Source: Squalus acanthias (lineage: Eukaryota). From it: DNA of 64,000 nucleotides. Positions 4,960 to 63,815 of the stretch are shown here, piece after piece (within the stretch, counting starts at the first letter, position 1; every line of letters starts with the position of its first letter). The translations under genes and the position numbers were made by a program. The stretch covers positions 26,910,001 to 26,974,000 of the forward strand of contig CM059432.1 in the NCBI GenBank assembly GCA_030390025.1, in the 5' to 3' direction. The notes beneath the pieces are model-generated. The model saw only the letters and a program-made list of their open reading frames with translations. It was not told the origin of the DNA and did not search any database.

Positions 4960-5045
4960 GAGCTCCAGGCACTGTAAACATCCTACACTCAGCTGTAACA
5001 AGAAAAAGGGGCTGAGAGAAGGTTGTTTACTCTAACTGGCTTGGA
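4960..5045 (+). ncRNA. mir-30: miR-30 family microRNA precursor (5p arm identical to miR-30b-5p)
   Basis: TGTAAACATCCTACACTCAGCT at 4973-4994; pairing 3p arm CTGAGAGAAGGTTGTTTACTCT at 5012-5033; basal UG at 4959-4960, apical UGU at 4994-4996, CNNC at 5050-5053. Confidence 0.95.
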
Positions 5046-31365: not shown

Positions 31366-31528
31366 GGAGGTGAAATTTAACTCGGGCGGGGATGCAAATT
31401 GGTTGATATTGCAACTGCCGCCCGTTATACGTCCTGCCCGATATTCAGTTCCCGATTTCAATGCTACTGAATATCGGGCGGAGCAATGTCGCCCGTTTTG
31501 AGTCATCGACCAAGTTAATGGATATCCC
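31366..31528. mobile_element. Palindromic MITE-like element
   Basis: Perfect 14-bp inverted repeat GCCCGATATTCAGT (31436-31449) / ACTGAATATCGGGC (31466-31479). Confidence 0.6.
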
Positions 31529-32703
31529 TTAAATGAAGAAACTAAAAGAGTTGGAATGGGCTTGAGGGTCCTGAATTTTTCTTTCGGTTCCTGAGTTTTA
31601 TTTCCTTTTATGAATTGTTAATGCTCATAAAGGTGAGGTAGAATCATAATGCCCTGTTTTAACCCAGCCCACCCAGGGCGGGGGGCTAGTTTAAATGGTG
31701 CGGTCGTGGGGGTTTGCGGCGTGCTCCCGAATGATTCCCGCCCAATGCCCTTTTAGCTCGGTAAAAATATTGTTCAGGAGGGCAGCCCATCCCAGGAAAG
31801 TGGAGGGTCTACCTAACATTCAAAAGTCGCGGCCTGTTGATGTCATTAGCAGCGCAATGTGAATTTAACTAGAAAAATCGGGAGGCTCGCAAGGCGTCAA
31901 AGCCAGGAGGCAGCGGAGTGACCAGAAGAGGCCACGGTAAGCTTTTATTATTTCTATGAAGCTTTCTTGTGGGACATGAGGAAGAGTAGCGCTACTCCGG
32001 GCCCTACAAGGAATCCTTGAGCCTCCCTAGCTCCAGCCTTCTCTGTCCCTCCCGGCAACTATATCTGTCTGGAAACCCCCTTCCCCAGCACTAACTTTTT
32101 GCCGGGGACCCTTCCCTTGGGTGCCTAGCTCCCATGCAAGTTTATGCTTCCACTCGCCGGCCCTGACGTCATTCCTGCTGACTTTGGGCGGAAGACAGTT
32201 TAGAACAATTCAAATGGTCCAGGCCTCACGCTCAACTCAGGAGTGTTTCCTGCCCGTCCCGTGTTAGAATTTTACAACACAGATAAGGCCTTCGTGTGGT
32301 CTCACTGAAAGCTAACAACTTAGTCCCATTTCCCTGCAGGGGTAGGTTTTTAACTTGCCGCCTGGTGTTGTGGATTGGTCACTCGTTAGGGAAACTGCCC
32401 GCTTTTCATTTCCATGGAAGTCGGCCCCCATACCCTTTACAATGTTTCTTTTTCAAATATTTATCCTCTTCTCTTTTTGAAGCGATTATGGATTCTGCTT
32501 CTGCCACTGATTCTGTTAGGACATTCCATGTTCCATGTCTGCCTGACAAAAATTCTTCTAAGCTCTCCCTTTGTTTTTTTCTCTCTTCCTCTACTCTTTT
32601 TAAGCTTTTCCATTAATGTATATGCCTTCTCGTTCTCCTCCTAAAATGCATCGCCTCACATTTCTCCACATTAAATTTCATTTGACATATATCTGTCCAT
32701 TCT

Positions 32704-35887: not shown

Positions 35888-37283
35888 CGGGCCCCAAGTT
35901 TCCATGGGGCTGGAGGCACATTCCTGTCATGAGTCATCCAGGACTTCAGTGAACCTTCAAGGAAATGGGTCCTAGGCAAGGCTGTTAATGTCTGATGAGC
36001 CAATTTGGGTCAGAATGTCCATCCGCCCCAAACGTGACCCATGCTCCACTGGCTGGAGTCATACCTAGCACAAATGAAGATGGTTGTGGTGGTTGAAGGT
36101 CAATCATCACAGCCCCAGGACATCGCTGCAGGAGTTCCTCAGGGCAGTGTCCTAGGCCCAACCATCTTCAGCTGCTTCATCAATGAACTTCCCTCCAACA
36201 TAAGGTCAGAAATGGGGATGTTCACTGATGACTGCACAGTGTCCAGCGCCATTCACAACTCCTCAGATAATGATGCAGTCCATGCCCGCATGCAACAAGA
36301 CCTGGATGACGTTCAGGCTTGGGCAGATAAGTGGCAGGTAACATTCGAGCCACAGAAGTGCAAGGCAATGACTATCTCCAACAAGCGAGAGTCTAACCAC
36401 CTCCCCTTGACATTCAACGGCATTACCATCACCGAATCCCCCACCATCAACATCCTGGGGGTAACCATTGACCAGAAACTTAACTGGACCAGCCACATAA
36501 ATACTGTGGCAACAAGAGCAGGTCAGAGGCTAGGTATTCTGCGGTGAGTGTCTCATCTCCTGACTCCCCAAAGCCTTTCCACCATCTACAAGGCACAAGT
36601 AAGGAGTGTGATGGAATACTCTCCACTTGCCTGGATGAGTGCAGCTCCAACAACACTCAAGAAGCTCGACACCATCCAGGACAAAGCAGCCCGCTTGATT
36701 GGCACCCCATCTACCACCTTAAACATTCACTCCCTCCACCACCGACGTACCGTGGCTGCAGTGTGTACCATCTACAAGATGCACTACAGCAACTCGCCAA
36801 GGCTTCTTCGGCAGCACCTCCCAAACCCGCGACCTCTTCCACCTAGAAGAACAAGGGCAGCAGGCGCATGGGAACACCACCACCTCCATGTTCCCCTCCA
36901 AGTCACACACCAGCCTGACTTAGAAGTATATCGCTGATCCTTCATCGTCGCTGGGTCAAAATCCTGGAACTCCCTACCTAACAGCACTGTGGGAGTACCT
37001 TCACCACACGGACTGCAGCGGTTCAACAAGGCAGCTCACCACCACCTTCTCAAGGGCAATTAGGGATGGGCAATAAATGCTTGCCTTGCCAGTGATGCCC
37101 ACATCACATAAAATGCTGTGGGCTGGGACAATGGAATTCCCATACCAGGAATTTCTTCAGTCCGGACTTCTCAGACCTGGACACTGGAGTGATCCCAGAA
37201 TGACCCACCCATTGGGCCATATGGGCTCCATCAGAACGCCGGCAGCTTGAGTACTATTGGCTCAGGCCAGGGATTCGGGGCAC
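35888..37283. mobile_element. Putative MITE interrupted by LINE-B
   Basis: Ends GGGCCCCAAGTTTCC / GGATTCGGGGCAC; ATGCT on both sides of the LINE. Confidence 0.4.
36044..37110 (+). mobile_element. LINE-B (CR1/L2-group) 3' part
   Basis: GVPQGSVLGP, MFTDDCT and YKAQVRSVMEYS; 3' tail GGGCAATAAATGC..GCCCACATC. Confidence 0.9.
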
Positions 37284-40545: not shown

Positions 40546-41146
40546 ACATCCTTGCACTTATACAGCACTTTTAACATATAAATGTGGTGAGAAACAGACA
40601 GTGAACAGTAGCCAAAGAGTTAGGGAAATAACTAGAATCATGGTAAAAAAAAGTAGGTTTTGAGGAGGCTTTTGAAGGTGGGGAGAGAATTAGCAAGGTG
40701 TCAGCTTCAGGGAGAGAATTCCAGAGATTAGGGACCAGCTGGCCACCAGCAGAGGGAGGCGAATGCGTAGGAAAGTAGAATCAAAAGGCATGGGTTTGGA
40801 TGTAGTGTTATAGGTTACTAGAGGTGGTGTGGGGTGAGCCCATGGAGGGTTAGATAAATGAGGACAAGGATTTTGAATCCAACTTGTTGGAGGGACTGGG
40901 AGCCAATGGAGGACAGAGATGATGGATGAGAGACAGCCTCAGGCAGTTAAGTTAGAGTTTATGTAAGGGGAGGCTTGGGAAGCTGGTGAAGAGGGCAATG
41001 AAGAAGCTGAGTCTGAAGATGACAAAAGCATGGGTGAAAGTTTTGTTGACTTTGGGGGTTAATAAAGGTAGACAATGTAGTGGAGGTAGAAAAACTGGTC
41101 TTGGTGATTAATAGGAGGTGAGGTTTGATATTTAGCTTGAGATCAA

Positions 41147-42060
41147 ATGGGGATGTTTGCTGATGACTGCACAGTGTTCAGTGCCATTCACAACTCCTCA
41201 GATAATGAAGCAGTCCATGCCCACGTGCAACAAGACCTGAACGACATTCAGGCTTGGGCTGATAAGTGGCAGGTAACATTCGTGCCACACAAGTGCTAGG
41301 CAATGACTATCTCCAACAAGCAAGCATCTAACCATCGCCACTTGACCTTCAACAGCATTACCATTGCCGAATCCCCCACCATCAACATCCTGGGGGTCAC
41401 CATTGACCAGAAACTTAACTGCACCAGCCACATAAATACTGTGGCAACAAGAGCAGGTCAGAGGCTAGGTATTCTGCAGCAAGTGGCTCACCTCCTGACT
41501 CCCCAAAGCCTTTCCACCATCTACAAGGCACAAGTAAGGAGTGTGATGGAATACTCTCCACTTGCCTGGATGAGTGCAGCTCCAACAACACTCAAGAAGC
41601 TCGACACCATCCAGGACAAAGCAGCTCACTTGATTGGCACCCTATCCACTACCTTAAACATTCACTCCCTCCAGCACCGGCGTACCGTGGCTGCAGTGTG
41701 TACCATCTACAAGATGCACTGCAGCAGCTCGCCATGGCTTCTTCAGCAGCACCTCCCAAACCCGCGACCTCTTCCACCTAGAAGGACAAGGGCAGCAGGC
41801 GCATGGGAACACCACCACCTCCAAGTTTCCCTCCAAGTCACACATCCTGACTTAGAAGTATATCGTCGATCCTTCATCGTCGCTGGGTCAAAATCCTGGA
41901 ACTGCCTACCTAACAGCACGATGGGAGTACCTTCACCACCCGGACTGCAGCAGTTCAACAAGGCGGTTCACCACCATCTTCTCTCGGGCAATTAGGGATG
42001 GGCAATAAATGCTGGCATTGCCAGTGACGCCTACATCCCATAAACAAATATTTAAAAAAA
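41147..42060 (+). mobile_element. LINE-B 3' part, lying within an old L2 remnant
   Basis: Highly similar to ~36212-37105; degraded minus-strand L2 at ~40545-41140 and ~42196-42400 (YADDTQIY). Confidence 0.9.
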
Positions 42061-42905: not shown

Positions 42906-43643
42906 CAAAAGAAAGGATTGGATGGTGGACTTTGACCTAGAGAACAACCATGTGATAGATCTATGCAACTGTCGGCAAAGCTACTGCTTGTAACTGAGCT
43001 CTAATGTGCTTTTACTAGTCTTGCAAGAAGTCATTTTTGAAACTAAAGTGTTGGCAATGCAAATTAACTGTGAATAAGTAAGCCATTTATATATATATAT
43101 ATATGTACACACACGTGTATGTGTGTTTTCCAATTTCTTTTATGACTCAGATTCTTCTGAATATTAAAGCTTATTTTAGGCAATATTATTTAATGTGGCT
43201 CTGGAAATTATTAGGTTTCTTTGCCAGAAACCACTCAAGTCACGTATTAGATGAGTACTCAAGAATTAATTAAATAGATTTGGAGATTACAGCACACATG
43301 TGGCATCTGTCATTACCTCAGTCTGGGATTTTAGCGTGCAGTGATATTGCCAATCTTGGGTCAGTGCTAAGCAGTTTTGGATGTTGATTGACTCGAAAAT
43401 GGCTACATAACTCAACACTGCGGTCCTAATGTGGCTCTCGATAGCACAAAATCCAAGTGGTGCGAGTCTGCTCTCTACTAGGCCATTTCACACCGGTTTG
43501 AGTTGAAACCAGCTGTCCAGAACGTCATTGTAACATAGCTAAAGCAAAATCCTGCGGTTGGTGGAAATCTGAATTAAAAATAGAAAATGCTGGAAACACT
43601 CACCAGGGCAGGCAGCACCTGTGGAGAGAGAAACAGAGGTAAT

Positions 43644-46600
43644 TGCCCCGATATTTACAGGGAGATGGAGAGGGTGCAGTAACACGGGGAAAACTTGTCT
43701 TGGCCGATCTTAACAGCAGGGTCTCATGAGCATATTGTACAGCCAAATTGACGGTCTGACCAGTGGGCGGGGGAAATGCTAGTGGCAGAGGGCGCCAGCC
43801 GGGGCAAATTGGGGATGGTCCTCAGCACTGTGAAGGGTACATCAACTCTGGGCTGTGAGTAGGTCTGTTGATCGGGAGGGTCGGGGGGAGGGTCAGGGGA
43901 AGGGTCGGGGAGGCGGGTCCTCCCGATCACCAAACGTCCCGAACCAACCTCCCGATTACCAACCCTCCCGATCACCAACCCTCCCGATCACCAACCTCCT
44001 GATCACCAACCTCCCGATTACCAACCCTCCCGATCACCAGCCTCCCGATCACCAACCTCCTGATCACCAGCCTCCCGATCACCAACCCTCCCGATCACCA
44101 ACCTCTCCCGATCACCAACCCTCCCGATCACCAACCCTCCCGATCACCAACCCTCCCGATCACCAACCCTCCTGATCACCAACCCTCCCGATCACCAACC
44201 CTCCCGATCACCGACCCTCCCCCGATCACCAACCCTCCCGATCACCAACCCTCCCGATCACCAACACTCCCGATCACCAACCCTCCCGATCACCAACCCT
44301 CCCGATCACCAACCCTCCCGATCACCAACCCTCCCGATCACCAACCCTCCCGATCACCAGCCTCCCGATCACCAGCCTCCCGATCACCAGCCTCCCGATC
44401 ACCAACCCTCCCGATCACCAGCCTCCCGATCACCAACCTCCCGATCACCAGCCTCCCGATCACCAACCCTCCCGATCACCAGCCTCCCGATCACCAACCA
44501 CCCGATCACCAGCCTCCCGATCACCAACCCTCCCGATCACCAGCCTCCACCGATCACCAACCCTCCCGATCACCAACCCTCCCGATCACCAACCCTCCCG
44601 ATCACCGACCCTCCCGATCACCGACCCTCCCGATCACCGACCCTCCCGATCACCGACCCTCCCGATCACCTACCCTCCCGATCACCAACCTCCCGATCAC
44701 CAACCCTCCCGATCACCGACCCTCCCGATCACCAGCCTCCCGATCACCGACCCTCCCGATCACCAGCCTCCCGATCACCAACCTCCCGATCACCAACCTC
44801 CCGATCACCAGCCTCCCGATCACCAACCCTCCCGATCACCAACCCTCCGCCGATCACCAACCCTCCCGATCACCAACCTCCCGATCACCAACCCTCCCGA
44901 TCACCACCCTCCCGATCACCAACCTCCCGATCACCAACCCTCCCGATCACCGACCCTCCCCCGATCACCAACCCTCCCGATCACCAACCTCCCGATCACC
45001 AACCTCCCGATCACCAACCTCCCGATCACCAACCCTCCCGATCACCAACCCTCCCGATCACCAACCCTCCCGATCACCAACCCTCCCGATCACCGACCCC
45101 CCCGATCACCGACCCTCCCGATCACCGACCTCCTGATCACCGACCCTCCCGATCACCAACCCTCCCGATCACCAACCTCCCGATCACCAACCCTCCCGAT
45201 CACCAGCCTCCCGATCACCAGCCTCCCGATCACCAACCCTCCCGATCACCAGCCTCCCGATCACCAACCCTCCCGATCACCAGCCTCCCGATCACCAACC
45301 CTCCCGATCACCAGCCTCCCGATCACCAGCCTCCCGATCACCAACCCTCCCGATCACCAGCCTCCCGATCACCAACCCTCCCGATCACCAGCCTCCCGAT
45401 CACCAACCCTCCCGATCACCAGCCTCCCGATCACCAACCCTCCCGATCACCAGCCTCCCGATCACCAGCCTCCCGATCACCAACCCTCCCGATCACCAGC
45501 CTCCCGATCACCAGCCTCCCGATCACCAACCCTCCCGATCACCAACCCTCCCGATCACCAGCCTCCCGATCACCAGCCTCCCGATCACCAACCCTCCCGA
45601 TCACCAACCCTCCCGATCACCAACCCTCCCGATCACCAGCCTCCCGATCACCAACCCTCCTGATCACCAACCTCCCGATCACCAGCCTCCCGATCACCAG
45701 CCTCCCGATCACCAGCCTCCCGATCACCAGCCTCCCCCGATCACCAACCCTCCCGATCACCAGCCTCCTGATCACCAACCTCCCGATCACCAGCCTCCCG
45801 ATCACCAGCCGCCCGATCACCAACCTCCCGATCACCAACCCTCCCGATCACCGACCTCCCGATCACCGACCTCCCGATCACCAACCCTCCCGATCACCAG
45901 CCTCCCGATCACCAGCCTCCCGATCACCAGCCTCCCGATCACCAACCCTCCCGATCACCAGCCTCCCGATTACCAGCCTCCCGATCACCGACCTCCCGAT
46001 CACCAACCCTCCCGATCACCGACCCTCCCGATCACCGACCTCCCGATCACCAACCTCCCGATCACCGACCCTCCCCCGATCACCAACCCTCCCGATCACC
46101 AACCCTCCCGATCACCAACCCTCCCGATCACCAACCCTCCCGATCACCAACCTCCCGATCACCGACCCTCCCGATCACCAACCCTCCCGATCACCAGCCT
46201 CCCGATCACCAACCCTCCCGATCACCAGCCTCCCGATCACCAACCTCCCGATCACCAGCCTCCCGATCACCAACCTCCCAATCACCAGGCTCCCGATCAC
46301 CAACCCTCCCGATCACCAGCCTCCCGATCACCAACCCTCCCGATCACCAACCCTCCCGATCACCAACCCTCCCGATCACCAACCCTCCCGATCACCAACC
46401 CTCCCGATCACCAACCCTCCCGATCACCAGCCTCCCCCGATCACCAACCTCCCGATCACCAACCTCCCGATCACCAGCCTCCCGATCACCAACCTCCCGA
46501 TCACCAACCCTCCCGATCACCAACCCTCCCGATCACCAACCTCCCCCGATCACCAACCCTCCCGATCACCAACCCTCCCGATCACCAACCAACCCTCCCG

Positions 46601-49600
46601 ATCACCGACCTCCCGATCACCAACCCTCCCGATCACCGACCCTCCCGATCACCAGCCTCCCGATCACCGACCCTCCCGATCACCAGCCTCCCGATCACCA
46701 ACCTCCCGATCACCAACCTCCCGATCACCAGCCTCCCGATCACCAGCCTCCCGATCACCAACCCTCCCGATCACCAGCCTCCCGATCACCAACCCTCCCG
46801 ATCACCGACCCTCCCGATCACCGACCCTCCCGATCACCAACCTCCTGATCACCGACCCGATCACCGACCCTCCCGATCACCAGCCTCCCGATCACCAACC
46901 TCCCGATCACCAGCCTCCCGATCACCAACCCTCCCGATCACCAGCCTCCCGATCACCGACCCTCCCGATCACCGACCCTCCCGATCACCGACCCGATCAC
47001 CGACCCTCCCGATCACCAGCCTCCCGATCACCAACCTCCCGATCACCAGCCTCCCGATCACCAACCCTCCCGATCACCAGCCTCCCGATCACCGACCCTC
47101 CCGATCACCGACCCTCCCGATCACCGACCCTCCCGATCACCAACCTCCTGATCACCGACCCTCCCGATCACCAACCCTCCCGATCACCAACCTCCAGATC
47201 ACCAACCCTCCCGATCACCAGCCTCCCGATCACCAGCCTCCCGATCACCAACCCTCCCGATCACCAACCCTCCCGATCACCAACCCTCCCGATCACCAAC
47301 CCTCCCGATCACCAGCCTCCCGATCACCAACCCTCCCGATCACCAGCCTCCCGATCACCAGCCTCCCGATCACCAACCCTCCCGATCACCAGCCTCCCGA
47401 TCACCAACCCTCCCGATCACCAGCCTCCCGATCACCAGCCTCCCGATCACCAACCCTCCCGATCACCAGCCTCCCGATCACCAGCCTCCCGATCACCAAC
47501 CCTCCCGATCACCAACCCTCCCGATCACCAGCCTCCCGATCACCAGCCTCCCGATCACCAACCCTCCCGATCACCACCCCTCCCGATCACCAACCCTCCC
47601 GATCACCAACCCTCCCGATCACCAGCCTCCCGATCACCAACCCTCCTGATCACCAACCTCCCGATCACCAGCCTCCCGATCACCAACCCTCCCGATCACC
47701 GACCCTCCCGATCACCGACCCTCCCGATCACCAGCCTCCTGATCACCGACCTCCCGATCACCAGCCTCCCGATCACCAGCCTCCTGATCACCGACCTCCC
47801 GATCACCAGCCTCCCGATCACCAGCCTCCCAATCACCAACCCTCCCGATCACCAACCCTCCCGATCACCGACCTCCCGATCACCAACCTCCCGATCACCG
47901 ACCCTCCCCCGATCACCAACCCTCCCGATCACCAACCCTCCCGATCACCAGCCTCCCGATCACCAACCCTCCCGATCACCAACCCTCCCGATCACCAACC
48001 CTCCCGATCACCAACCCTCCCGATCACCAACCCTCCCGATCACCAACCCTCCCGATCACCGACCTCCCGATCACCAACCCTCCCGATCACCAACCCTCCC
48101 GATCACCAACCCTCCCGATCACCAGCCTCCCGATCACCAGCCTCCCGATCACCAACCCTCCCGATCACCAACCCTCCCGATCACCAACCCTCCCGATCAC
48201 CAGCCTCCCCCGATCACCAACCTCCCGATCACCAGCCTCCCGATCACCAACCTCCCGATCACCAACCCTCCCGATCACCAGCCTCCCGATCACCAACCCT
48301 CCCGATCACCAACCCTCCTGATCACCAACCCTCCCGATCACCAACCCTCCCGATCACCAACCTCCCCCGATCACCAACCCTCCAGATCACCAACCTCCCG
48401 ATCATCAGCCTCCCGATCACCGACCCTCCCGATCACCAACCCTCCAGATCACCAACCTCCCGATCACCAGTCTCCCGATCACCGACCCTCCCGATCACCA
48501 ACCCTCCCGATCACCAACCTCCCGATCACCAACCCTCCCGATCACCAACCCTCCCGATCACCAGTCTCCCGATCAGCGACCCTCCCGATCACCGACCCTC
48601 CCGATCACCAACCCTCCCGATCACCAACCCTCCAGATCACCAACCTCCCGATCACCAGTCTCCCGATCACCAACCTCCCGATCACCAACCCTCCCGATCA
48701 CCAACCCTCCAGATCACCAACCTCCCGATCACCAACCCTCCCGATCACCAACCTCCCCCGATCACCAGCCTCCCGATCACCAGCCCTCCCGATCACCAGC
48801 CTCCCGATCACCAACCCTCCCGATCACCAACCTCCCGATCACCAGCCCTCCCGATCACCAGCCTCCCGATCACCAGCCTCCCGATCACCAACCCTCCCGA
48901 TCAGCAACCCTCCCGATCACCAACCCTCCCGATCACCAGCCTCCCGATCACCAACCCTCCCGATCACCGACCCTCCCGATCACCAACCCTCCCGATCACC
49001 AACCCTCCAGATCACCAACCTCCCGATCACCAGCCTCCCGATCACCAACCCTCCCGATCACCAACCCTCCCGATCACCAACCCTCCCGATCACCAACCCT
49101 CCCGATCACCAACCTCCCCCGATCACCAACCCTCCAGATCACCAACCTCCCGATCATCAGCCTCCCGATCACCGACCCTCCCGATCACCAACCCTCCAGA
49201 TCACCAACCTCCCGATCACCAGTCTCCCGATCACCGACCCTCCCGATCACCAACCCTCCCGATCACCAACCTCCCGATCACCAACCTCCCGATCACCAAC
49301 CCTCCCAATCACCAACCCTCCCGATCACCAGTCTCCCGTTCAGCGACCCTCCCGATCACCGACCCTCCCGATCACCAACCCTCCCGATCACCAACCCTCC
49401 AGATCACCAACCTCCCGATCACCAGTCTCCCGATCACCAACCTCCCGATCACCAACCCTCCCGATCACCAACCCTCCAGATCACCAACCTCCCGATCACC
49501 AACCCTCCCGATCACCAACCTCCCCCGATCACCAGCCTCCCGATCACCAGCCCTCCCGATCACCAGCCTCCCGATCACCAACCCTCCCGATCACCAACCT

Positions 49601-52600
49601 CCCGATCACCAGCCCTCCCGATCACCAGCCTCCCGATCACCAGCCTCCCGATCACCAACCCTCCCGATCAGCAACCCTCCCGATCACCAACCCTCCCGAT
49701 CACCAGCCTCCCGATCACCAACCCTCCCGATCACCAGCCTCCCGATCACCAGCCTCCCGATCACCAACCCTCCCGATCACCAGCCTCCCGATCACCAACC
49801 CTCCCGATCACCAGCCTCCCGATCACCAGCCTCCCGATCACCAACCCTCCCGATCACCAGCCTCCCGATCACCAGCCTCCCGATCACCAACCCTCCCGAT
49901 CACCAGCCTCCCGATCACCAACCCTCCCGATCACCAACCCTCCCGATCACCAACCCTCCCGATCACCAGCCTCCCGATCACCAGCCTCCCGATCACCAAC
50001 CCTCCCGATCACCAACCCTCCCGATCACCAACCCTCCCGATCACCAGCCTCCCGATCACCAACCCTCCTGATCACCAACCTCCCGATCACCGACCCTCCC
50101 GATCACCAACCCTCCCGATCACCGACCTCCCGATCACCAACCTCCCGATCACCGACCCTCCCCCGATCACCAACCCTCCCGATCACCAACCCTCCCGATC
50201 ACCAGCCTCCCGATCACCAACCCTCCCGATCACCAACCCTCCCGATCACCAACCCTCCCGATCACCGACCTCCCGATCACCAACCTCCCGATCACCGACC
50301 CTCCCCCGATCACCAACCCTCCCGATCACCAACCCTCCCGATCACCAACCCTCCCGATCACCAACCCTCCCGATCACCAACCCTCCCGATCACCAACCCT
50401 CCCGATCACCAACCCTCCCGATCACCAACCCTCCCGATCACCAGCCTCCCGATCACCAGCCTCCCGATCACCAACCCTCCCGATCACCAGCCTCCCCCGA
50501 TCACCAGCCTCCCCCGATCACCAGCCTCCCGATCACCAGCCTCCCGATCACCAACCCTCCCGATCACCAGCCTCCCCCGATCACCAGCCTCCCCCGATCA
50601 CCAGCCTCCCGATCACCAACCCTCCCGATCACCAACCCTCCCGATCACCAGCCTCCCCCGATCACCAACCTCCCGATCACCAGCCTCCCGATCACCAACC
50701 CTCCCGATCACCAGCCTCCCGATCACCAACCCTCCCGATCACCAACCCTCCCGATCACCAACCTCCCCCGATCACCAACCCTCCAGATCACCAACCTCCC
50801 GATCATCAGCCTCCCGATCACCGACCCTCCCGATCACCAACCCTCCAGATCACCAACCTCCCGATCACCAGTCTCCCGATCACCGACCCTCCCGATCACC
50901 AACCCTCCCGATCACCAACCTCCCGATCACCAACCCTCCCGATCACCAGTCTCCCGATCACCGACCCTCCCGATCACCGACCCTCCCGATCACCAACCCT
51001 CCCGATCACCAACCCTCCAGATCACCAACCTCCCGATCACCAGTCTCCCGATCACCAACCTCCCGATCACCAACCCTCCCGATCACCAACCCTCCAGATC
51101 ACCAACCTCCCGATCACCAACCTCCCCCGATCACCAGCCTCCCGATCACCAACCTCCCGATCACCAACCTCCAGATCACCAACCCTCCCGATCACCAACC
51201 CTCCCGATCACCAACCTCCCGATCACCAACCTCCCGATCACCAACCCTCCTGATCACCAACCCTCCTGATCACCAACCTCCCGATCACCAACCCTCCCGA
51301 TCACCAACCTCCCCCGATCACCAGCCTCCCGATCACCAACCCTCCCGATCACCAGACTCCCGATCACCGACCCTCCCGATCACCAGCCTCCCCCGATCAC
51401 CAGCCTCCCCCGATCACCAACCTCCCGATCACCGACCCTCCCGATCATCGACCCTCCCGATCACCAGCCTCCCGATCACCAGCCTCCCAATCACCAACCC
51501 TCCCGATCACCAACCCTCCCGATCACCGACCTCCCGATCACCAACCTCCCGATCACCGACCCTCCCCCGATCACCAACCCTCCCGATCACCAACCCTCCC
51601 GATCACCAGCCTCCCGATCACCAACCCTCCCGATCACCAACCCTCCCGATCACCAACCCTCCCGATCACCAACCCTCCCGATCACCAACCCTCCCGATCA
51701 CCAACCCTCCCGATCACCAACCCTCCCGATCACCGACCTCCCGATCACCAACCCTCCCGATCACCAACCCTCCCGATCACCAACCCTCCCGATCACCAAC
51801 CCTCCCGATCACCAGCCTCCCGATCACCAGCCTCCCGATCAGCAACCCTCCCGATCACCAACCCTCCCGATCACCAACCCTCCCGATCACCAGCCTCCCC
51901 CGATCACCAACCTCCCGATCACCAGCCTCCCGATCACCAACCTCCCGATCACCAACCCTCCCGATCACCAGCCTCCCGATCACCAACCCTCCCGATCACC
52001 AACCCTCCTGATCACCAACCCTCCCGATCACCAACCCTCCCGATCACCAACCCTCCCGATCACCAACCTCCCCAGATCACCAACCCTCCAGATCACCAAC
52101 CTCCCGATCATCAGCCTCCCGATCACCGACCCTCCCGATCACCAACCCTCCAGATCACCAACCTCCCGATCACCAGTCTCCCGATCACCGACCCTCCCGA
52201 TCACCAACCCTCCCGATCACCAACCTCCCGATCACCAACCCTCCCGATCACCAACCCTCCCGATCACCAGTCTCCCGATCAGCGACCCTCCCGATCACCG
52301 ACCCTCCCGATCACCAACCCTCCCGATCACCAACCCTCCAGATCACCAACCTCCCGATCACCAGTCTCCCGATCACCAACCTCCCGATCACCAACCCTCC
52401 CGATCACCAACCCTCCAGATCACCAACCTCCCGATCACCAACCCTCCCGATCACCAACCTCCCCCGATCACCAGCCTCCCGATCACCAGCCCTCCCGATC
52501 ACCAGCCTCCCGATCACCAACCCTCCCGATCACCAACCTCCCGATCACCAGCTCTCCCGATCACCAGCCTCCCGATCACCAGCCTCCCGATCACCAACCC

Positions 52601-55600
52601 TCCCGATCAGCAACCCTCCCGATCACCAACCCTCCCGATCACCAGCCTCCCGATCACCAACCCTCCCGATCACCGACCCTCCCGATCACCAACCCTCCCG
52701 ATCACCAACCCTCCAGATCACCAACCTCCCGATCACCAGCCTCCCGATCACCAACCCTCCCGATCACCAACCCTCCCGATCACCAACCCTCCCGATCACC
52801 AACCCTCCCGATCACCAACCTCCCCCGATCACCAACCCTCCAGATCACCAACCTCCCGATCATCAGCCTCCCGATCACCGACCCTCCCGATCACCAACCC
52901 TCCAGATCACCAACCTCCCGATCACCAGTCTCCCGATCACCGACCCTCCCGATCACCAACCCTCCCGATCACCAACCTCCCGATCACCAACCTCCCGATC
53001 ACCAACCCTCCCGATCACCAACCCTCCCGATCACCAGTCTCCCGATCAGCGACCCTCCCGATCACCGACCCTCCCGATCACCAACCCTCCCGATCACCAA
53101 CCCTCCAGATCACCAACCTCCCGATCACCAGTCTCCCGATCACCAACCTCCCGATCACCAACCCTCCCGATCACCAACCCTCCAGATCACCAACCTCCCG
53201 ATCACCAACCCTCCCGATCACCAACCTCCCCCGATCACCAGCCTCCCGATCACCAGCCCTCCCGATCACCAGCCTCCCGATCACCAACCCTCCCGATCAC
53301 CAACCTCCCGATCACCAGCCCTCCCGATCACCAGCCTCCCGATCACCAGCCTCCCGATCACCAACCCTCCCGATCAGCAACCCTCCCGATCACCAACCCT
53401 CCCGATCACCAGCCTCCCGATCACCAACCCTCCCGATCACCAGCCTCCCGATCACCAGCCTCCCGATCACCAACCCTCCCGATCACCAGCCTCCCGATCA
53501 CCAACCCTCCCGATCACCAGCCTCCCGATCACCAGCCTCCCGATCACCAACCCTCCCGATCACCAGCCTCCCGATCACCAGCCTCCCGATCACCAACCCT
53601 CCCGATCACCAGCCTCCCGATCACCAACCCTCCCGATCACCAACCCTCCCGATCACCAGCCTCCCGATCACCAGCCTCCCGATCACCAACCCTCCCGATC
53701 ACCAACCCTCCCGATCACCAACCCTCCCGATCACCAGCCTCCCGATCACCAACCCTCCTGATCACCAACCTCCCGATCACCGACCCTCCCGATCACCAAC
53801 CCTCCCGATCACCGACCTCCCGATCACCAACCTCCCGATCACCGACCCTCCCCCGATCACCAACCCTCCCGATCACCAACCCTCCCGATCACCAGCCTCC
53901 CGATCACCAACCCTCCCGATCACCAACCCTCCCGATCACCAACCCTCCCGATCACCGACCTCCCGATCACCAACCTCCCGATCACCGACCCTCCCCCGAT
54001 CACCAACCCTCCCGATCACCAACCCTCCCGATCACCAACCCTCCCGATCACCAACCCTCCCGATCACCAACCCTCCCGATCACCAACCCTCCCGATCACC
54101 AACCCTCCCGATCACCAACCCTCCCGATCACCAACCCTCCCGATCACCAACCCTCCCGATCACCAACCCTCCCGATCACCAGCCTCCCGATCACCAGCCT
54201 CCCGATCACCCCCCGATCACCAGCCTCCCCCGATCACCAGCCTCCCCCGATCACCAGCCTCCCGATCACCAGCCTCCCGATCACCAACCCTCCCGATCAC
54301 CAGCCTCCCCCGATCACCAGCCTCCCCCGATCACCAGCCTCCCGATCACCAACCCTCCCGATCACCAACCCTCCCGATCACCAGCCTCCCCCGATCACCA
54401 ACCTCCCGATCACCAGCCTCCCGATCACCAACCCTCCCGATCACCAGCCTCCCGATCACCAACCCTCCCGATCACCAACCCTCCCGATCACCAACCTCCC
54501 CCGATCACCAACCCTCCAGATCACCAACCTCCCGATCATCAGCCTCCCGATCACCGACCCTCCCGATCACCAACCCTCCAGATCACCAACCTCCCGATCA
54601 CCAGTCTCCCGATCACCGACCCTCCCGATCACCAACCCTCCCGATCACCAACCTCCCGATCACCAACCCTCCCGATCACCAGTCTCCCGATCACCGACCC
54701 TCCCGATCACCGACCCTCCCGATCACCAACCCTCCCGATCACCAACCCTCCAGATCACCAACCTCCCGATCACCAGTCTCCCGATCACCAACCTCCCGAT
54801 CACCAACCCTCCCGATCACCAACCCTCCAGATCACCAACCTCCCGATCACCAACCTCCCCCGATCACCAGCCTCCCGATCACCAACCTCCCGATCACCAA
54901 CCTCCAGATCACCAACCCTCCCGATCACCAACCCTCCCGATCACCAACCTCCCGATCACCAACCTCCCGATCACCAACCCTCCTGATCACCAACCCTCCT
55001 GATCACCAACCTCCCGATCACCAACCCTCCCGATCACCAACCTCCCCCGATCACCAGCCTCCCGATCACCAACCCTCCCGATCACCAGACTCCCGATCAC
55101 CGACCCTCCCGATCACCAGCCTCCCCCGATCACCAGCCTCCCCCGATCACCAACCTCCCGATCACCGACCCTCCCGATCATCGACCCTCCCGATCACCAG
55201 CCTCCCCCGATCACCAGCCTCCCGATCACCAACCCTCCCGATCACCAGCCTCCCCCGATCACCAGCCTCCCGATCACCAACTTTCCCGATCACCAGCCTC
55301 CCCCGATCACCAACCTCCCGATCACCAACCCTCCCGATCATCGACCCTCCCGATCACCAGCCTCCCCCGATCACCAGCCTCCCGATCACCAGCCCTCCCG
55401 ATCACCAGCCCTCCCGATCACCAGCCTCCCGATCACCAACCCTCCCGATCACCAGACTCCCGATCACCGACCCTCCCGATCACCGACCCTCCCGATCACC
55501 AACCCTCCCGATCATCGACCCTCCCGATCACCAGCCTCCCCCGATCACCAGCCTCCCGATCACCAACCCTCCCGATCACCAGCCTCCCCCGATCACCAGC

Positions 55601-58592
55601 CTCCCGATCACCAACTTTCCCGATCACCAGCCTCCCCCGATCACCAACCTCCCGATCACCAACCCTCCCGATCATCGACCCTCCCGATCACCAGCCTCCC
55701 CCGATCACCAGCCTCCCGATCACCAGCCCTCCCGATCACCAGCCCTCCCGATCACCAGCCTCCCGATCACCAACCCTCCCGATCACCAGACTCCCGATCA
55801 CCGACCCTCCCGAACACCGACCCTCCCGATCACCAACCCTCCCGATCACCAGCCTCCCCCGATCACCAGCCTCCCCCGATCACCAGCCTCCCGATCACCA
55901 ACCCTCCCGATCACCGACCCTCCCGATCACCAGCCTCCCCCGATCACCAGCCTCCCCCGATCACCAGCCTCCCGATCACCAGCCTCCCGATCACCAACCC
56001 TCCCGATCACCAACCTCCCCAGATCACCAGCCTCCCCCGATCACCAGCCTCCCCCGATCACCAGCCTCCCGATCACCAACCCTCCCGATCACCAACCCTC
56101 CCGATCACCAGCCTCCCCCGATCACCAACCTCCCGATCACCAGCCTCCCGATCACCAACCCTCCCGATCACCAGCCTCCCGATCACCAACCCTCCCGATC
56201 ACCAACCCTCCCGATCACCAACCTCCCCCGATCACCAACCCTCCAGATCACCAACCTCCCGATCATCAGCCTCCCGATCACCGACCCTCCCGATCACCAA
56301 CCCTCCAGATCACCAACCTCCCGATCACCAGTCTCCCGATCACCGACCCTCCCGATCACCAACCCTCCCGATCACCAACCTCCCGATCACCAACCCTCCC
56401 GATCACCAGTCTCCCGATCACCGACCCTCCCGATCACCGACCCTCCCGATCACCAACCCTCCCGATCACCAACCCTCCAGATCACCAACCTCCCGATCAC
56501 CAGTCTCCCGATCACCAACCTCCCGATCACCAACCCTCCCGATCACCAACCCTCCAGATCACCAACCTCCCGATCACCAACCTCCCCCGATCACCAGCCT
56601 CCCGATCACCAACCTCCCGATCACCAACCTCCAGATCACCAACCCTCCCGATCACCAACCCTCCCGATCACCAACCTCCCGATCACCAACCTCCCGATCA
56701 CCAACCCTCCTGATCACCAACCCTCCTGATCACCAACCTCCCGATCACCAACCCTCCCGATCACCAACCTCCCCCGATCACCAGCCTCCCGATCACCAAC
56801 CCTCCCGATCACCAGACTCCCGATCACCGACCCTCCCGATCACCAGCCTCCCCCGATCACCAGCCTCCCCCGATCACCAACCTCCCGATCACCGACCCTC
56901 CCGATCATCGACCCTCCCGATCACCAGCCTCCCCCGATCACCAGCCTCCCGATCACCAACCCTCCCGATCACCAGCCTCCCCCGATCACCAGCCTCCCGA
57001 TCACCAACTTTCCCGATCACCAGCCTCCCCCGATCACCAACCTCCCGATCACCAACCCTCCCGATCATCGACCCTCCCGATCACCAGCCTCCCCCGATCA
57101 CCAGCCTCCCGATCACCAGCCCTCCCGATCACCAGCCCTCCCGATCACCAGCCTCCCGATCACCAACCCTCCCGATCACCAGACTCCCGATCACCGACCC
57201 TCCCGATCACCGACCCTCCCGATCACCAACCCTCCCGATCATCGACCCTCCCGATCACCAGCCTCCCCCGATCACCAGCCTCCCGATCACCAACCCTCCC
57301 GATCACCAGCCTCCCCCGATCACCAGCCTCCCGATCACCAACTTTCCCGATCACCAGCCTCCCCCGATCACCAACCTCCCGATCACCAACCCTCCCGATC
57401 ATCGACCCTCCCGATCACCAGCCTCCCCCGATCACCAGCCTCCCGATCACCAGCCCTCCCGATCACCAGCCCTCCCGATCACCAGCCTCCCGATCACCAA
57501 CCCTCCCGATCACCAGACTCCCGATCACCGACCCTCCCGAACACCGACCCTCCCGATCACCAACCCTCCCGATCACCAGCCTCCCCCGATCACCAGCCTC
57601 CCCCGATCACCAGCCTCCCGATCACCAACCCTCCCGATCACCGACCCTCCCGATCACCAGCCTCCCCCGATCACCAGCCTCCCCCGATCACCAGCCTCCC
57701 GATCACCAGCCTCCCGATCACCAACCCTCCCGATCACCAACCTCCCCAGATCACCAGCCTCCCCCGATCACCAGCCTCCCCCGATCATCGACCCTCCCGA
57801 TCACCAGCCTCCCCCGATCACCAGCCTCCCCCGATCACCAGCCTCCCGATCACCGACCCTCCCGATCACCAACCCTCCTGATCACCAACCCTCCCGATCA
57901 CCAGCCTCCCCCGATCACCAACCTCCCGATCACCAACCCTCCCGATCATCGACCCTCCCGATCACCAGCCCTCCCGATCATCGACCCTCCCGATCACCAG
58001 CCTCCCCCGATCACCAGCCTCCCCCGATCACCAGCCTCCCGATCACCAACCCTCCCGATCACCGACCCTCCCGATCACCGACCCTCCCGATCACCAACCC
58101 TCCCGATCACCAACCCTCCTGATCACCAACCCTCCCGATCACCAGCCTCCCCCGATCACCAACCTCCCGATCACCAACCCTCCCGATCACCGACCCTCCC
58201 GATCACCGACCCTCCCGATCACCAGCCTCCCGATCACCAACCTCCTGATCACCAGCCTCCCGATCACCAGCCTCCCCCGATCACCGACCCTCCCGATCAC
58301 CAGCCTCCCCCAAGCCCTCGGATCAGCGGCCAGGAATCCCACAATAGGGCCTCGTCCTCACTTACTGGGAAATTGAAGTTGTGACGCCAATGATCCGCGT
58401 CTTTGGTATGCTAATTAGGCCCCCGCCTGCCTTTAGTGGGATCATTTTCCATGGTCTGGTTCTGCACATTGAATTTAAAGGGGTGGGAATGGGGTCAGGT
58501 TGCCCAATCTCAATATTTTAACCCCCCCCACCCACCCATCGGATCCTCTCCCTCCCGTCGGTAATGGGGGTGGGTGGGTTTAATCGAGGACA
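43644..58592. mobile_element. GC-rich MITE-like host element inflated by the satellite
   Basis: Imperfect termini TGCCCCGATATTTA / TTTAATCGAGGACA; ~275 and ~280 bp unique arms flank the array; no clear TSD. Confidence 0.5.
43919..58310 (+). repeat. ~14.4 kb tandem array of a 15-17 bp unit CCCGATCACC(AACCCT/AGCCT/AACCT/GACCCT)
   Basis: Directly visible; roughly 900 units (length divided by ~15.6). Confidence 0.99.
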
Positions 58593-58780
58593 CTGTTTCA
58601 GGCCATTTCTAATGAAAGGTCATTGACTGATCCATTAACTCTGTTTCTCTCTCCACAGATGCTGCCTGACCTGCTGAGTGTTTCCAGCATTTTCTATCTT
58701 TATTTCATAGTAACTTATAAACTAACATTTCAACACTAGGAAAAAGCGGAGATGGTTAAATGACTGAAGTGATCCTAACG

Positions 58781-59375
58781 TAACAACAACAACAACTTGT
58801 ATTTATATAGTGCCTTTAACGTAGTAAAAGGTCCCAAGGTGCTTCACAGGAGTACTGTAAGACAATAAAATTTGACACCGTGCCATATAAGGAGAAATTA
58901 GGCCAGGTGACCAAAAGCTTGGTCAAAGAGGTTTTAAGGAGTGTCTTAAAGGAGGAAAGAGAGGTAGAGAGGCAGAGAGGATTAGGGAGGGAATTCCAGA
59001 GTTTAGGGCCTAGGCAACAGAAGGCACGGCCGCCAATGGTTGAGCGATTATAATCAGGGATGCTCAAGAGGGCAGGATTAGAGGAGCGCAGATATCTCGG
59101 GAGGTTGTGGGGCTGGAGGAGATTACAGAGATTGGGAGGGGCGAGGCCATGGAGGGATTTGAAAACAAGGATGAGAATTTTGAAATTGAGGCACTGCTTA
59201 ACCGGGAGCCAATGTAGGTCAGCGAGCACAGGGGTGATGGGCGAACGGGACTTGGTGCGAGTTAGGACACAGGCAGCAGAGTTTTGGATGACCTCAAGTT
59301 TACAGAGGGTAGAATGTGGGAGGCCGGCCAGAAGTGCGTTGGAATAGTCAAGGGCAGAGACGGGCGATGTTACGC
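58781..59375 (-). mobile_element. L2 3' region
   Basis: LDYSNALLAGLP..LHWLPVKQ..FKILILVFKSL; (ACA)n end. Confidence 0.92.
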
Positions 59376-60904: not shown

Positions 60905-63815
60905 TTTTTTTTAATTCGTTCCGGGATGTGGGCGTCGCTGGCAACGCCAGCATTGATTGCCCATCCCTAATTGCCCTTGAGGAGGTGGTGGTGAGCCGTC
61001 GCCTTGAAGAGCTGCAGTGCTGTTAGGGAGGGAGTTCCAGAATTTTGACTCAGCGATGATGAAGGAACGGTGATATATTTCCAAGTCAGGTTGGTGTGTA
61101 ACTTGGAGGGGAACTTGGAGGTGGTGGTGTTCCCATGCGCCTGCTGCCCTTGTCCTTCTAGGTGGAAGAGGTCACAGGTTTGGGAAGAAGCCTTGGCGAG
61201 TTGCTGCAATGCATCTTGTAGATGGTGCATACTGCAGCCACGGTGCACCAGTGGTGGAGGGAGTGAATGTTGAAGGTGGTGGATGGGGTGCCAATCAAAT
61301 GGGCTGCTTTGTCCTGGATGGTGTCGAGCTTCTTGAGTGTTGTTGGAGCTGCACTCATCCAGGCAAGTGGAGAGTATTCCATCACACTCCTGATTTGTGC
61401 CTTGTAGATGGTGGAAAGCCTTTGGGGAGTCAGGAGGTGAAACACTCGCCGCAGAATACCCAGCCTCTGACCCGCTCTTGTTGCCACTGTTTTTATGTGG
61501 CCGGTACAGTTAAGTTTCTGGTCAATGGTGACCCCTAGGATGTTGATGGTGGGGGATTCGGCGATGGTAATGCCGTTGAATGTCAAGGGGCGGTGGTTAG
61601 ACTCTCGCTTGTTGGAGATAGTCATTGCCTGACACTTAAGTGGCAAGTAATGTTCGCGCCACACATTAGCCCAAACCTGAATGTTGTCCAGGTCTTGCTG
61701 CATGCGGGCATGGACTGCTTCATTTTCTGAGGAGTTGCGAATGGAACTGAACACTGTGCAATCATCAGCGAACATCCCTACTTCTGACCTTATGTTGGAG
61801 GGAAAGCCATTGATGAAGCAGCTAAACATGGTTGGGCCTAGGACACTGCCCTGAGGAACTCCTGCAGCGATGTCCCGGCGCTGAGATGATTGACTTCCAA
61901 CAATCACAACCTTCTTCCTTTGTGCTAGGTATGACTCCAGCCAGTGGAGAGCTTTCCCCCTAATTCCCATTGACTTCAATTTTACTCGGGCTCCTTGATG
62001 CCACACTCAGTTAAATGCTGCCTTGATGTCAAGGGCAGTCACTCTCACCTCACCTCTGGAATTCAGCTCTTTTGTCCATGTTTGGACCAAGGCTGTAATG
62101 AGGTCTGGAGTCGAGTGATCCTGGCGGAACCCAAACTGAGCGTCGGTGAGCAGGTTCTGGTGAGTAAGTGCTGGTTGATAGCACTGTCGACGGCATCTTC
62201 CATCACTTTGCTGATGATTGGGAGTAGACTGATGAGGCGGTAATTGGCTGGATTTGTTTTGCTTATTGTGGACAGGACATACCTGGGCAGGTTTCCACAT
62301 TGTTGGATAGATGCCAGTGTTTTAGCTGTACTGGAACAGCTTGGCTAGAGGCGCGACTAGCTCTGGAGCACAAGTCTTCAGCACGACAGCCGGGATGTTG
62401 TCGGGGCCAATAGCCTTTGCTGTATCCAGTGCGCTCAGCCGCTTCTTGATATCACGTGGAGTGAATCGAATTGGCTGAAGACTGGCTTCTGTGATGGTGG
62501 GGACCTCAGGAGGAGGCCGATATGGATCATCCACTCGGCACTTCTGGTTGAAGATGGTTGCAAACGCTTCAGCTTTGTCTTTTGCACTCACTTGCTGTGC
62601 TCAGCCATCATTGAGGATGGGAATATTCACGGAGCCTCCTCCTCCCATTAGTTGTTTAATTGTCCACCACCATTCACAACTGGATGTGGCAGGACTGCAG
62701 AGCTTTGATCTGATCTGTTGATTGTGGGATCGCTTAGCTCTGTCTATAGCATGCTGCTTTCGCTGTTTAGCATGCATGTAGTCCCGTGTTGCAGCTTCCC
62801 CAGGTTGGCACCTCATTTTTAGGTACGCCAGGTGCTGTTCCTGGCATGCTCTTCTACACTCCTCATTGAACCAGGGTTGGTCCCCTGGCTTAATGGTAAT
62901 GGTAGAGTGAGGGATATGCCTGGCCATGAGGTTACAGATTGTGGTGGAATACAATTCTGATGGCCCACAGCGCCTCATGGATGCCCAGTTTTGAGCTGCT
63001 AGATCTGTTCTGAATCTATCCCATTTAGCACGGTGGTAGTGCCACACAACACATTGGAGGGTGTCCTCAATGTGAAGAACGGACTTCGTCTCCGCAAGGA
63101 CTGTGCGGTGTTTACCAATGCTGTCATGGACAGATGCATTTGCGACAAGATGAGGTCACGTAGGTTTTTCCCTTGTGTTGGTTCTCTCACCACCTGCCGC
63201 AGGCTCAGTCTGCCAGCTATCTCCTTCAGGACTCGTTCAGTAGTGGTGCTACCGAGCCACTCTTGGTGATGGACATTGAAGTCCCCCACCCAGAGTACAT
63301 TCTGTGCCCTTGCTACCCTCAGTGCTTCTTCCAAGTGGTGTTCAACATGGAGGAGTACTGATTCATCAGCTAAGGGAGGGCAGTAGGTGGTAATCAGCAG
63401 GAGGTTTCCTTACCCATGCTTGACCTGAAGTCATGAGACTTCACTGTTCACTATACTTCCAAGTTTTGAGACACGGGGAAAGGACAGGGAAGTGGGACGA
63501 GCTGAAGTGCTCTTGCAGAGAGCTGGCACTAGTTGAATGGCCTCCTTCTGTGCTGTAACCATTCTATGACTTCATGGGGTCCGGAGTCAATGTTGAGGAC
63601 TCCCAGGGTAAGTCCCTTCTGACTGTATACCACTGTACCGCCACCTCTGGTGGGTCTGTCCTGCCGGTGGGACAGGACATACCCAGGGATTGTGATGGAG
63701 GAGTCTGGGACATTGGCTGAAAGGTATGATTCTGTGAGTAGGACTATGTCAGGCTGTTGCTTGACTAGTCTGTGAGACAGCTCTCCCAATTTTGGCACAA
63801 GTCCCCTGATGTTAG
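60905..63815 (-). mobile_element. LINE-B with nearly complete ORF2 (APE endonuclease and RT), frameshifted
   Basis: PDIVLLTES..DRPTRGGG, VGDFNVHH, GPDNIP, QFGFR, LDIKAAF, GVPQGSVLGP and FADDCT. Confidence 0.93.
63444..63567 (+). mobile_element. Short CR1 insertion with an inverted 5' segment
   Basis: TSD GACTTCA at 63437-63443 and 63568-63574; ends ..CCATTCTAT. Confidence 0.8.

What the first reader, a model, noticed from the sequence alone, without database searches (positions are those of the whole stretch)
43541..58710. Nested structure: a 14.4 kb satellite inside a MITE-like element inside an inverted-repeat element
Seen: 64-bp arms (60/64 complementary) lie 15 kb apart. Between them is a GC-rich element with imperfect TIRs and only ~550 bp of non-array sequence, whose centre is the array. 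The outer element reads ..GAGGTAAT / CTGTTTCAGG.. across the insertion. Known: satellites can arise from internal motifs of MITEs. Inference: a snapshot of TE-seeded satellite birth, and other copies of the MITE should carry few units or independently expanded arrays.
Basis: partly seen in the sequence, partly recalled or inferred. Interest (0 to 1): 0.7.

Follow-up and report, generated by a model that had tools for sequence, protein, structure and literature searches.

The report
Old minisatellite inside nested transposon remnants
A 14.4-kb run of 16-letter repeats grew inside an old cut-and-paste transposon remnant that had itself landed in a ribozyme-motif repeat; the nesting is real and shared with two related species, so it is an old, still-changing local repeat of a known kind and not a satellite caught at birth.

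Summary
The nesting is real. About 915 units of 15-17 bp fill 43919-58310. Contigs of two studies bridge both left junctions; the right junctions and array length were not testable.

(1) The outer arms read as a very abundant Penelope-type repeat: empty copies carry a minimal hammerhead motif (motif only; no Rfam hammerhead match). (2) The inner element (43644-58591) has no significant TIRs (6/12 terminal letters). It is bounded by a 3-bp AAT/ACT duplication in a Harbinger-type target; the middle of its left arm is single-copy at 80% likeness. (3) It is no newborn: two related species (flank 3.3% diverged) hold the insert and the array edge, one with further units, and depth in the window's species needs no other arrays.

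New detail: an exact inverted copy of one unit lies 34 bp before the array. The array is polar, with old variants beside that copy and exact duplications up to 1766 bp far from it. TE-internal tandem expansion is known (miDNA4, Xstir, Tetris). The scan earlier noted, on other DNA of this genome, a Harbinger hot spot in a Penelope hammerhead repeat and a LINE-seeded array.

The parts
43541..43643 (-). Outer repeat, left arm (core 43570-43643); very abundant Penelope-type repeat end, interrupted inside the reverse complement of its hammerhead motif
   Evidence: 68/74 complementary to right arm; summed depth 1.1-4.9 million against 12-29 for unique flank; empty copies continue past 43642 in 110, 79, 117 and 125 contigs of the four runs
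43641..43643 (+). Left copy of the candidate 3-bp target duplication (AAT)
   Evidence: Removing the insert and one copy restores the read consensus of the empty repeat; flanks fit A-N-N-Y[3]R-N-N-T, which occurs at 1.9% of flank positions
43644..43918 (.). Left part of the inner GC-rich insert (Harbinger/PHIS-type non-autonomous element, inferred)
   Evidence: Bridged by contigs in 4 of 4 runs, three organisms; a 20-33-letter match beginning at 43645 exists at another locus in X1, X7, X9 (table 5); single-copy depth at 43748-43783 in X1 and X3
43869..43884 (-). Exact reverse complement of one array unit (type present 72 times): candidate seed
   Evidence: 1 of 1000 dinucleotide shuffles, 0 of 316 flank tiles reach 16; 43860-43975 folds as DNA at -31.2 kcal/mol, z -3.5, 0 of 200 shuffles
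43874..43919 (+). G-rich 12-bp mini-array, 3.8 copies; one copy fewer in organisms C and D
   Evidence: 12 letters left out at 43874 in X7 and X9 (table 4)
43919..58310 (+). Minisatellite-type array, about 915 units of 15-17 bp, C-rich on +, one CpG per unit, polar, with nested block duplications
58311..58591 (.). Right part of the inner insert; weak likeness to a second GC-rich element at 31650-32270 (opposite strand)
   Evidence: local score 42, 0 of 500 shuffles, best of 304 tiles but the next tile scores 40; not covered by the read call
58592..58594 (+). Right copy of the candidate target duplication (ACT; one change from AAT)
58595..58602 (-). Continuation of the outer left arm after the insert
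   Evidence: matches the start of the loose-end consensus of empty copies (table 7)
58609..58633 (+). Decayed minimal hammerhead motif (core CTAATGA for CTGAYGA, stem II remnant, GAAA lost)
   Evidence: intact form inferred from read consensus; no hammerhead family matched in Rfam
58634..58707 (+). Outer repeat, right arm

Best explanation
Three layers, all older than the split between the window's species and organisms C and D. (1) A short Penelope-like insertion left two truncated ends in inverted orientation, each carrying the minimal hammerhead region (structure shown; Penelope identity inferred from motif and architecture). (2) A GC-rich non-autonomous PHIS/Harbinger-type element inserted at the 3-bp site in that repeat's hammerhead region, which spells the target these elements prefer, and duplicated AAT (insertion shown; superfamily inferred). 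(3) Inside it, a G-rich slippage-prone tract and an inverted 16-bp copy of its motif formed a local fold-back. The inverted unit was first multiplied by slippage (one-unit and one-base variants), then the array grew by unequal exchange or conversion that copied ever larger blocks (334, 767, 1727, about 3700 bp), mostly at the side away from the seed (pattern shown; mechanism inferred). The result is a locus-restricted giant minisatellite: old in origin, young in most of its present sequence, probably neutral, and not a dispersed satellite family.
For: Empty outer copies run on past 43642 in 79-125 contigs per run and their consensus, read on the other strand, holds CTGAYGA, a 5-bp stem II and GAAA followed by a palindromic CG (table 7), the features given for minimal PLE hammerheads (PMC4209133 passages); inverted truncated copies are typical of PLE insertions (PMC8557442 passages); an older relative in the window keeps the core (28463, - strand). 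TSD AAT/ACT fits ANT (PMC4482050); flanks fit A-N-N-Y[3]R-N-N-T, as does the published Harbinger3_DR target (PMC3016246) and a TAA-bounded element at 26236-27120. Orthologous contigs in X7 and X9 bridge 43643|44 and rejoin 43862-43942; an X9 contig has two further units behind 43942 (tables 5, 5c, 8). Inverted seed. Polarity: 16 of 19 single-occurrence unit variants lie in the first 3.7 kb; median longest exact twin rises 50, 95, 300, 215, 690, 510 nt along the array. A 1766-nt exact duplication bounds that block at under about 0.17% divergence against 3.3% between species. CpG kept in 849 of 921 unit positions, o/e 1.33 against 0.34 in the flank.
Against: No significant TIRs and one mismatch in a 3-bp TSD, so the inner ends rest on the empty-site read-through. 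The two inner arms were never seen together at another locus; the likeness to the element at 31650-32270 is weak for the right arm and not significant for the left (149 of 500 shuffles). Rfam found no hammerhead in 58560-58760 or 28340-28500, and the 28420-28475 stretch folds no better than shuffles (87 of 200). The orthologous contigs of C and D stop aligning at 43942, only 1.5 units into the array, so array length there rests on summed contig depth (86 and 340 single-copy equivalents), which the tool says is no copy number. Right junctions and array length in the window's species are untested; exact long duplications could in part be assembly error. The 3.7-kb boundary for the polarity count was chosen after seeing the data.
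Confidence: 0.65

Rival explanations
1. The inner element family already carried a short array of this unit (and its inverted copy) when it transposed, as in miDNA4 or DTC84; this locus is only the copy where it ran away. Differs from the best reading in where the seed arose.
For: Known for other MITEs (PMC12628747 passages; PMC3879986 abstract). Seed and units are shared by three species, so they are old. About ten single-copy equivalents match 43676-43747 at 80% (table 2), so relatives exist.
Against: The only candidate relative in the window (31650-32270) holds no array (one search lists none there). Depth at the array edge needs no further arrays in organism A.
Confidence: 0.25
2. One reading: a young satellite just born in a high-copy MITE with TIRs, inside a DNA-type inverted-repeat element.
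For: Most of the array sequence is young (exact duplicates of 200 nt or more cover 10,134 of 14,392 nt); nesting is real.
Against: Insert and array edge are shared with organisms C and D at 3.3% flank divergence; mid-left arm is single-copy at 80%; TIRs not significant; the outer repeat carries a hammerhead motif.
Confidence: 0.1
3. The inner segment is not one element but two or more insertions or fragments stacked at a hot spot (left end of one family, right end of another), with the array at their joint.
For: Arms are not significantly complementary; 58510-58591 forms a weak hairpin of its own (13 of 500 shuffles); C and D skip or replace 43773-43861; the site may be reused (X3 record 15 aligns 43575-43664 and then runs on unlike).
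Against: One 3-bp duplication bounds the whole 14,948 bp and restores the empty site; both ends share register (GAT at positions 7-9).
Confidence: 0.15
4. The array is real but its assembled length is inflated by mis-joined reads; the long exact duplications are partly artefacts.
For: 1766-nt and 995-nt duplications with no difference at all; no laid piece spans the array.
Against: Duplications are nested at five or more scales and carry private variants in the older layers; summed depth of 74-128 single-copy equivalents at the array edge shows a large array in two studies.
Confidence: 0.1

Closest known systems
miDNA4 (Tc1/mariner MITE of Xenopus tropicalis with internal satellite) and Xstir/Xmix of Xenopus laevis; seen as passages of reviews PMC12628747 and PMC9659126, primary papers not read
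   Same: Tandem unit inside a short non-autonomous DNA element of a vertebrate; array can outgrow its host element while the ends decay
   Different: Those are high-copy families with many array-bearing copies and dispersed arrays; here one locus, a 16-bp unit, about 915 copies, probable Harbinger-type host, and an inverted copy of the unit beside the array
Tetris/TIR-220 of Drosophila virilis (PMC4079207, abstract) and DTC84 of Donax trunculus (PMC3879986, abstract)
   Same: Fold-back or MITE element with internal repeats that expand; in Tetris kb-size arrays arise from internal repeats
   Different: Units of about 220 bp inside long TIRs (Tetris) or at most five core repeats (DTC84); here no significant TIRs and a one-sided expansion to 14.4 kb
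Mouse Ms6-hm and Hm-2 (from MaLR LTRs) and Alu-derived human minisatellites; seen as table rows and passages of PMC9659126
   Same: Single-locus G-rich tandem arrays grown from a motif inside an old TE copy; polarity and instability of such arrays are recalled, not from a call
   Different: Retrotransposon hosts and 4-6-bp units in mouse; here a DNA-element host in a cartilaginous-fish-like genome
Penelope-like element pLTRs with minimal type I hammerheads (PMC4209133, PMC8557442, PMC11167929; passages)
   Same: Inverted truncated ends, CUGANGA/GAAA core, extra base before stem II, palindromic positions after GAAA
   Different: Only about 100-bp ends here, no ORF; this copy's motif is decayed; link to an autonomous PLE not shown by me
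PHIS transposons: Harbinger3_DR target consensus (PMC3016246 passage) and Pangu ANT duplication (PMC4482050 passages)
   Same: 3-bp duplication of ANT form; A-N-N-Y / R-N-N-T flanks; ends probably GG-initial
   Different: No transposase, TIR match only 6/12; group within PHIS cannot be assigned

Membership tests
MITE (inner element) | Short, non-coding | tested here: met
   556 bp outside the array; the long open frames lie in the stop-poor array
MITE (inner element) | Terminal inverted repeats | tested here: not met
   6/12 terminal letters; 160 of 500 shuffles reach the terminal 30-nt score; may be decay
MITE (inner element) | Target site duplication | tested here: inconclusive
   AAT/ACT, 2 of 3 letters; removal restores the empty-site consensus
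MITE (inner element) | High copy number of similar copies | tested here: not met
   Single-copy depth at 43748-43783 in X1 and X3 at 80% likeness, about tenfold at 43676-43747; older, more diverged copies would be missed and contig depth is no exact copy number
PHIS / PIF-Harbinger superfamily | 3-bp duplication and palindromic target preference | tested here: inconclusive
   ANT form and A-N-N-Y[3]R-N-N-T fit; the motif occurs at 1.9% of flank positions; one site only
PHIS / PIF-Harbinger superfamily | Ends shared with an autonomous element coding DDE transposase (and Myb/SANT protein) | not testable with these tools
   no genome held
Penelope-like element end (outer repeat) | Minimal type I hammerhead in the repeat | tested here: inconclusive
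   Core and stem II read by eye in the consensus of empty copies and in the copy at 28463; no Rfam match; cleavage untested
Penelope-like element end (outer repeat) | Inverted, truncated copy next to the repeat | tested here: met
   68/74 inverted arms, left arm cut inside the motif
Penelope-like element end (outer repeat) | Link to an RT + GIY-YIG ORF | not tested
   0 of 17 long ORFs outside the array hit a GIY-YIG family; 3 hit RVT_1 and 1 an AP-type endonuclease, i.e. LINE remnants; no full PLE at hand
Satellite DNA family | Long head-to-tail array | tested here: met
   14.4 kb, 915 units
Satellite DNA family | Abundant, at several loci | tested here: inconclusive
   Observed 74-128 single-copy equivalents against 4-3800 simulated from this array alone over five settings: no need for more arrays, a few more not excluded

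The most novel reading that the evidence does not exclude
The array was nucleated at this locus by a template-switch inversion of 16 bp of the element's G-rich tract; the resulting hairpin fixed one end, so the array has grown in one direction and been renewed for some ten million generations in at least three species while keeping nearly all its CpGs. It would be a natural, datable record of minisatellite birth by inverted duplication, and possibly a maintained CpG-rich, G-quadruplex-prone block 39 kb from miR-30b.
Probability: 0.2. Interest if true: 0.55.

Novelty: new member of a known kind. Interest (0 to 1): 0.3.

Why it matters
It is a well-preserved vertebrate example in which every layer can still be read: host repeat, insertion site, seed motif and the order of block duplications. 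That makes it a usable case for how long minisatellites start and turn over in slowly evolving genomes, and it adds an independent locus to the hot spot for Harbinger-type insertions in a Penelope hammerhead repeat. It does not show a new kind of element or a satellite family in the act of spreading.

Tried and rejected
Whole genome: none held, so the genome-wide pairing of the two inner arms was not run. Long TIRs between inner arms: not significant in 3 of 4 alignments, 3 of 500 in the fourth. Inner arms against two GC-rich elements in the window: 6 of 8 comparisons at chance, both better ones being the right arm against 31360-32290 (1 and 0 of 100 shuffles); the left arm's best tiles elsewhere looked like chance. 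Rfam: only miR-30 at gathering level in the window; e-value scans gave no hammerhead (best hit Hrs1, 24.5 bits against a cut-off of 56.4, taken as chance). Pattern scans: outer arm 0 hits in viral and prokaryote contigs; inner left end 2 hits in metagenomes, L001 and L002, matching only 21-23 letters, rejected as chance. T-to-G at 43644 in 50-83 contigs per run is not used as evidence, since empty outer copies also have G there. A left-to-right block parse suggested polarity but the right-to-left parse did not show the same trend, so only direction-free measures are used. Protein-coding reading of the array: long open frames follow from a unit poor in stop codons; not pursued. Canonical G4 pattern with loops up to 7: 0 matches; 307 with loops up to 12; G4Hunter mean 1.25, a prediction only. 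Earlier-finding look-ups by sequence and near the window found nothing.

Full report
Setting. The window is vertebrate DNA: a miR-30 precursor lies at 4965-5039 (the mature letters read as miR-30b, from recall) among LINE remnants (3 of 17 long ORFs hit RVT_1, 1 an AP-type endonuclease). That it is a shark or relative rests on the scan's earlier notes on this genome (unchecked) and on my recall of the outer repeat; I did not test it. No genome was held, so outside evidence comes from one run search and one laying of contigs on 42920-43975 (4 of 9 runs: X1 and X3 of organism A from two studies, X7 of organism C, X9 of organism D).

The array. TRF gives 43919-58302, period 16, 915.9 copies. It splits into 915 units of 45 types, mostly 16 (466), 15 (356) and 17 bp (78); five types make up 78%. 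Exact duplications are nested at periods 334, 767, 1727, 3706 and 3733, the longest 1766 nt without a difference. Exact twins of 200 nt or more cover 10,134 of 14,392 nt. The array is polar: 16 of 19 single-occurrence variants lie in the first 3.7 kb (boundary chosen after the fact), and the median longest exact twin is 50, 95, 300, 215, 690 and 510 nt in successive 2.4-kb bins. CpG is kept at 849 of 921 unit positions (o/e 1.33 against 0.34 in the left flank), and the minus strand has a G4Hunter mean of 1.25.

The outer element. Arms 43570-43643 and 58634-58707 match at 68/74 (0 of 500 shuffles). In all four runs this sequence draws summed depth in the millions against 12-29 for unique flank, and 110, 79, 117 and 125 contigs continue past 43642 without the insert (tables 2 and 7). 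Read on the other strand, that continuation holds CTGAYGA, one extra base, a 5-bp stem (AGGTC/GACCT), GAAA and a palindromic CG: the features described for minimal hammerheads of Penelope-like elements (PMC4209133, passages). Inverted, truncated ends are typical of PLE insertions (PMC8557442, passages). This copy's own motif at 58609-58633 is decayed; an older relative at 28463 keeps the core. Against this: Rfam gives no hammerhead match for either copy, the 28420-28475 stretch folds no better than shuffles, and I have no linked PLE ORF. So 'Penelope-type end' is inference from motif and architecture.

The inner element. The empty-site consensus fixes the register: GAGGT[AAT] element [ACT]GTTTCAGG, element 43644-58591, 14,948 bp with 556 bp outside the array. 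A 3-bp ANT duplication is described for the Pangu group of PHIS transposons (PMC4482050, passages), and the flanks fit A-N-N-Y[3]R-N-N-T, a pattern I took from earlier finding e1-7807215 and checked here: it fits this site, the TAA-bounded element at 26236-27120 and the published Harbinger3_DR target (PMC3016246, passage), and occurs at 1.9% of flank positions. A 20-33-letter match starting at 43645 occurs at another locus in X1, X7 and X9, and X3 record 15 aligns from the outer arm to 43664 and then runs on unlike, a hint that the site was reused; its letters were not shown. TIRs are not significant (6/12; 160 of 500 shuffles). At 80% likeness 43748-43783 is single-copy in organism A and 43676-43747 about tenfold. 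The right arm resembles the element at 31650-32270 (score 42, 0 of 500 shuffles, but only just the best of 304 tiles). It works like a decayed non-autonomous Harbinger-type insertion; it fails the MITE tests for TIRs and copy number as testable here.

The seed. The left arm ends in a G-rich 12-bp mini-array and holds at 43869-43884 the exact reverse complement of a unit type found 72 times in the array (1 of 1000 shuffles, 0 of 316 flank tiles). 43860-43975 folds as a DNA hairpin at z = -3.5. The oldest-looking part of the array is the part next to this hairpin. Whether the inverted pair arose here or came with the element is open.

Age and spread. Single contigs of X1 and X3 bridge both left junctions with one other letter each (table 8). 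Organisms C and D have the orthologous flank (23 and 22 other letters in about 690, 3.3%), bridge the same outer/inner junction, skip or replace 43773-43861, lack one 12-bp G-rich copy and rejoin to 43942, 1.5 units into the array; an X9 contig carries two further units of types also found in the window (tables 4, 5, 5c, 8). With the epaulette-shark rate of 7e-10 per site per generation (PMC10587355, passages; another species, CpG changes included) 3.3% is of the order of 10^7 generations; the 1766-nt block is under about a twentieth of that. Depth at the array edge is 128 and 74 single-copy equivalents in X1 and X3, 86 in X7 and 340 in X9; unitigs simulated from this array alone give 4 to 3800 over five settings. 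The tool warns that such depth is no copy number. It shows only that no genome-wide satellite is needed and that C and D probably hold sizeable arrays too.

Mechanism. Shown: nesting, empty site, shared presence in three species, inverted unit, polarity, nested duplications. Inferred: PLE and Harbinger identities, slippage at the hairpin as the start, unequal exchange or conversion as the driver of block duplications (established for minisatellites, from recall), turnover faster than CpG decay.

Comparison. Arrays growing from motifs inside MITEs and other TEs are known: Xstir, miDNA4 (passages of PMC12628747, and PMC9659126), Tetris and DTC84 (abstracts), mouse Ms6-hm (table row). Searches listed no paper on this element or array; the library is partial, Repbase/Dfam were not at hand, and no supplements were read. 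Also seen as passages: PMC6155905, PMC11167929, bioRxiv 10.64898/2026.07.22.740005 (hammerhead-bearing tandem repeats in one cartilaginous fish). The scan noted earlier, on other DNA of this genome, Harbingers landing on one 3-bp spot of a Penelope hammerhead repeat (e1-7805368) and a 60-kb array grown from LINE DNA (e1-7857509); I reached the PLE and Harbinger readings before seeing these (note), and they are leads, not proof.

Verdict. Real, well preserved, of a known kind: a locus-restricted giant minisatellite in a decayed Harbinger-type insertion in a Penelope-type repeat. The inverted seed with one-sided growth is the one feature worth a follow-up. Interest 0.3.

Noticed in passing
window 4965-5039 (+): miR-30 precursor (Rfam RF00131, 58.7 bits); mature letters read as miR-30b (recall); 39 kb from the array.
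   Followed up: no
window 26236-27120: GC-rich element with 12-bp TIR-like ends and a perfect TAA/TAA duplication in an A-N-N-Y/R-N-N-T site: a clear Harbinger-type non-autonomous element.
   Followed up: partly
window 31366-31528 and 31650-32270: Two more GC-rich elements; the second has an internal hairpin and a C-rich tract and is weakly alike to the inner element's right arm.
   Followed up: partly
window 7975-8021 and 28376-28470: Older relatives of the outer repeat; the second keeps the CTGANGA...GAAA core on the - strand.
   Followed up: partly
X3 record 15 (aligns window 43575-43664): A second locus may carry an inner-type end at the same base of the outer repeat, pointing to a reused insertion site.
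   Followed up: partly
window 43773-43861: Skipped or replaced in orthologous contigs of organisms C and D; in D a second contig covers about 43752-43821, which may be another allele.
   Followed up: no
window 43290 and 43794: Both organism A runs read another letter than the window at these places (table 3): other haplotype or assembly error.
   Followed up: no
window 36044-36989, 41145-42057, 60905-61949: Young LINE copies about 90% alike in inverted orientation on both sides of the array, with RVT_1 hits.
   Followed up: no
window 58795-59360, 24407-24837, 30305-30508: Dispersed repeat copies over 90% alike, one inserted about 90 bp right of the outer right arm.
   Followed up: no
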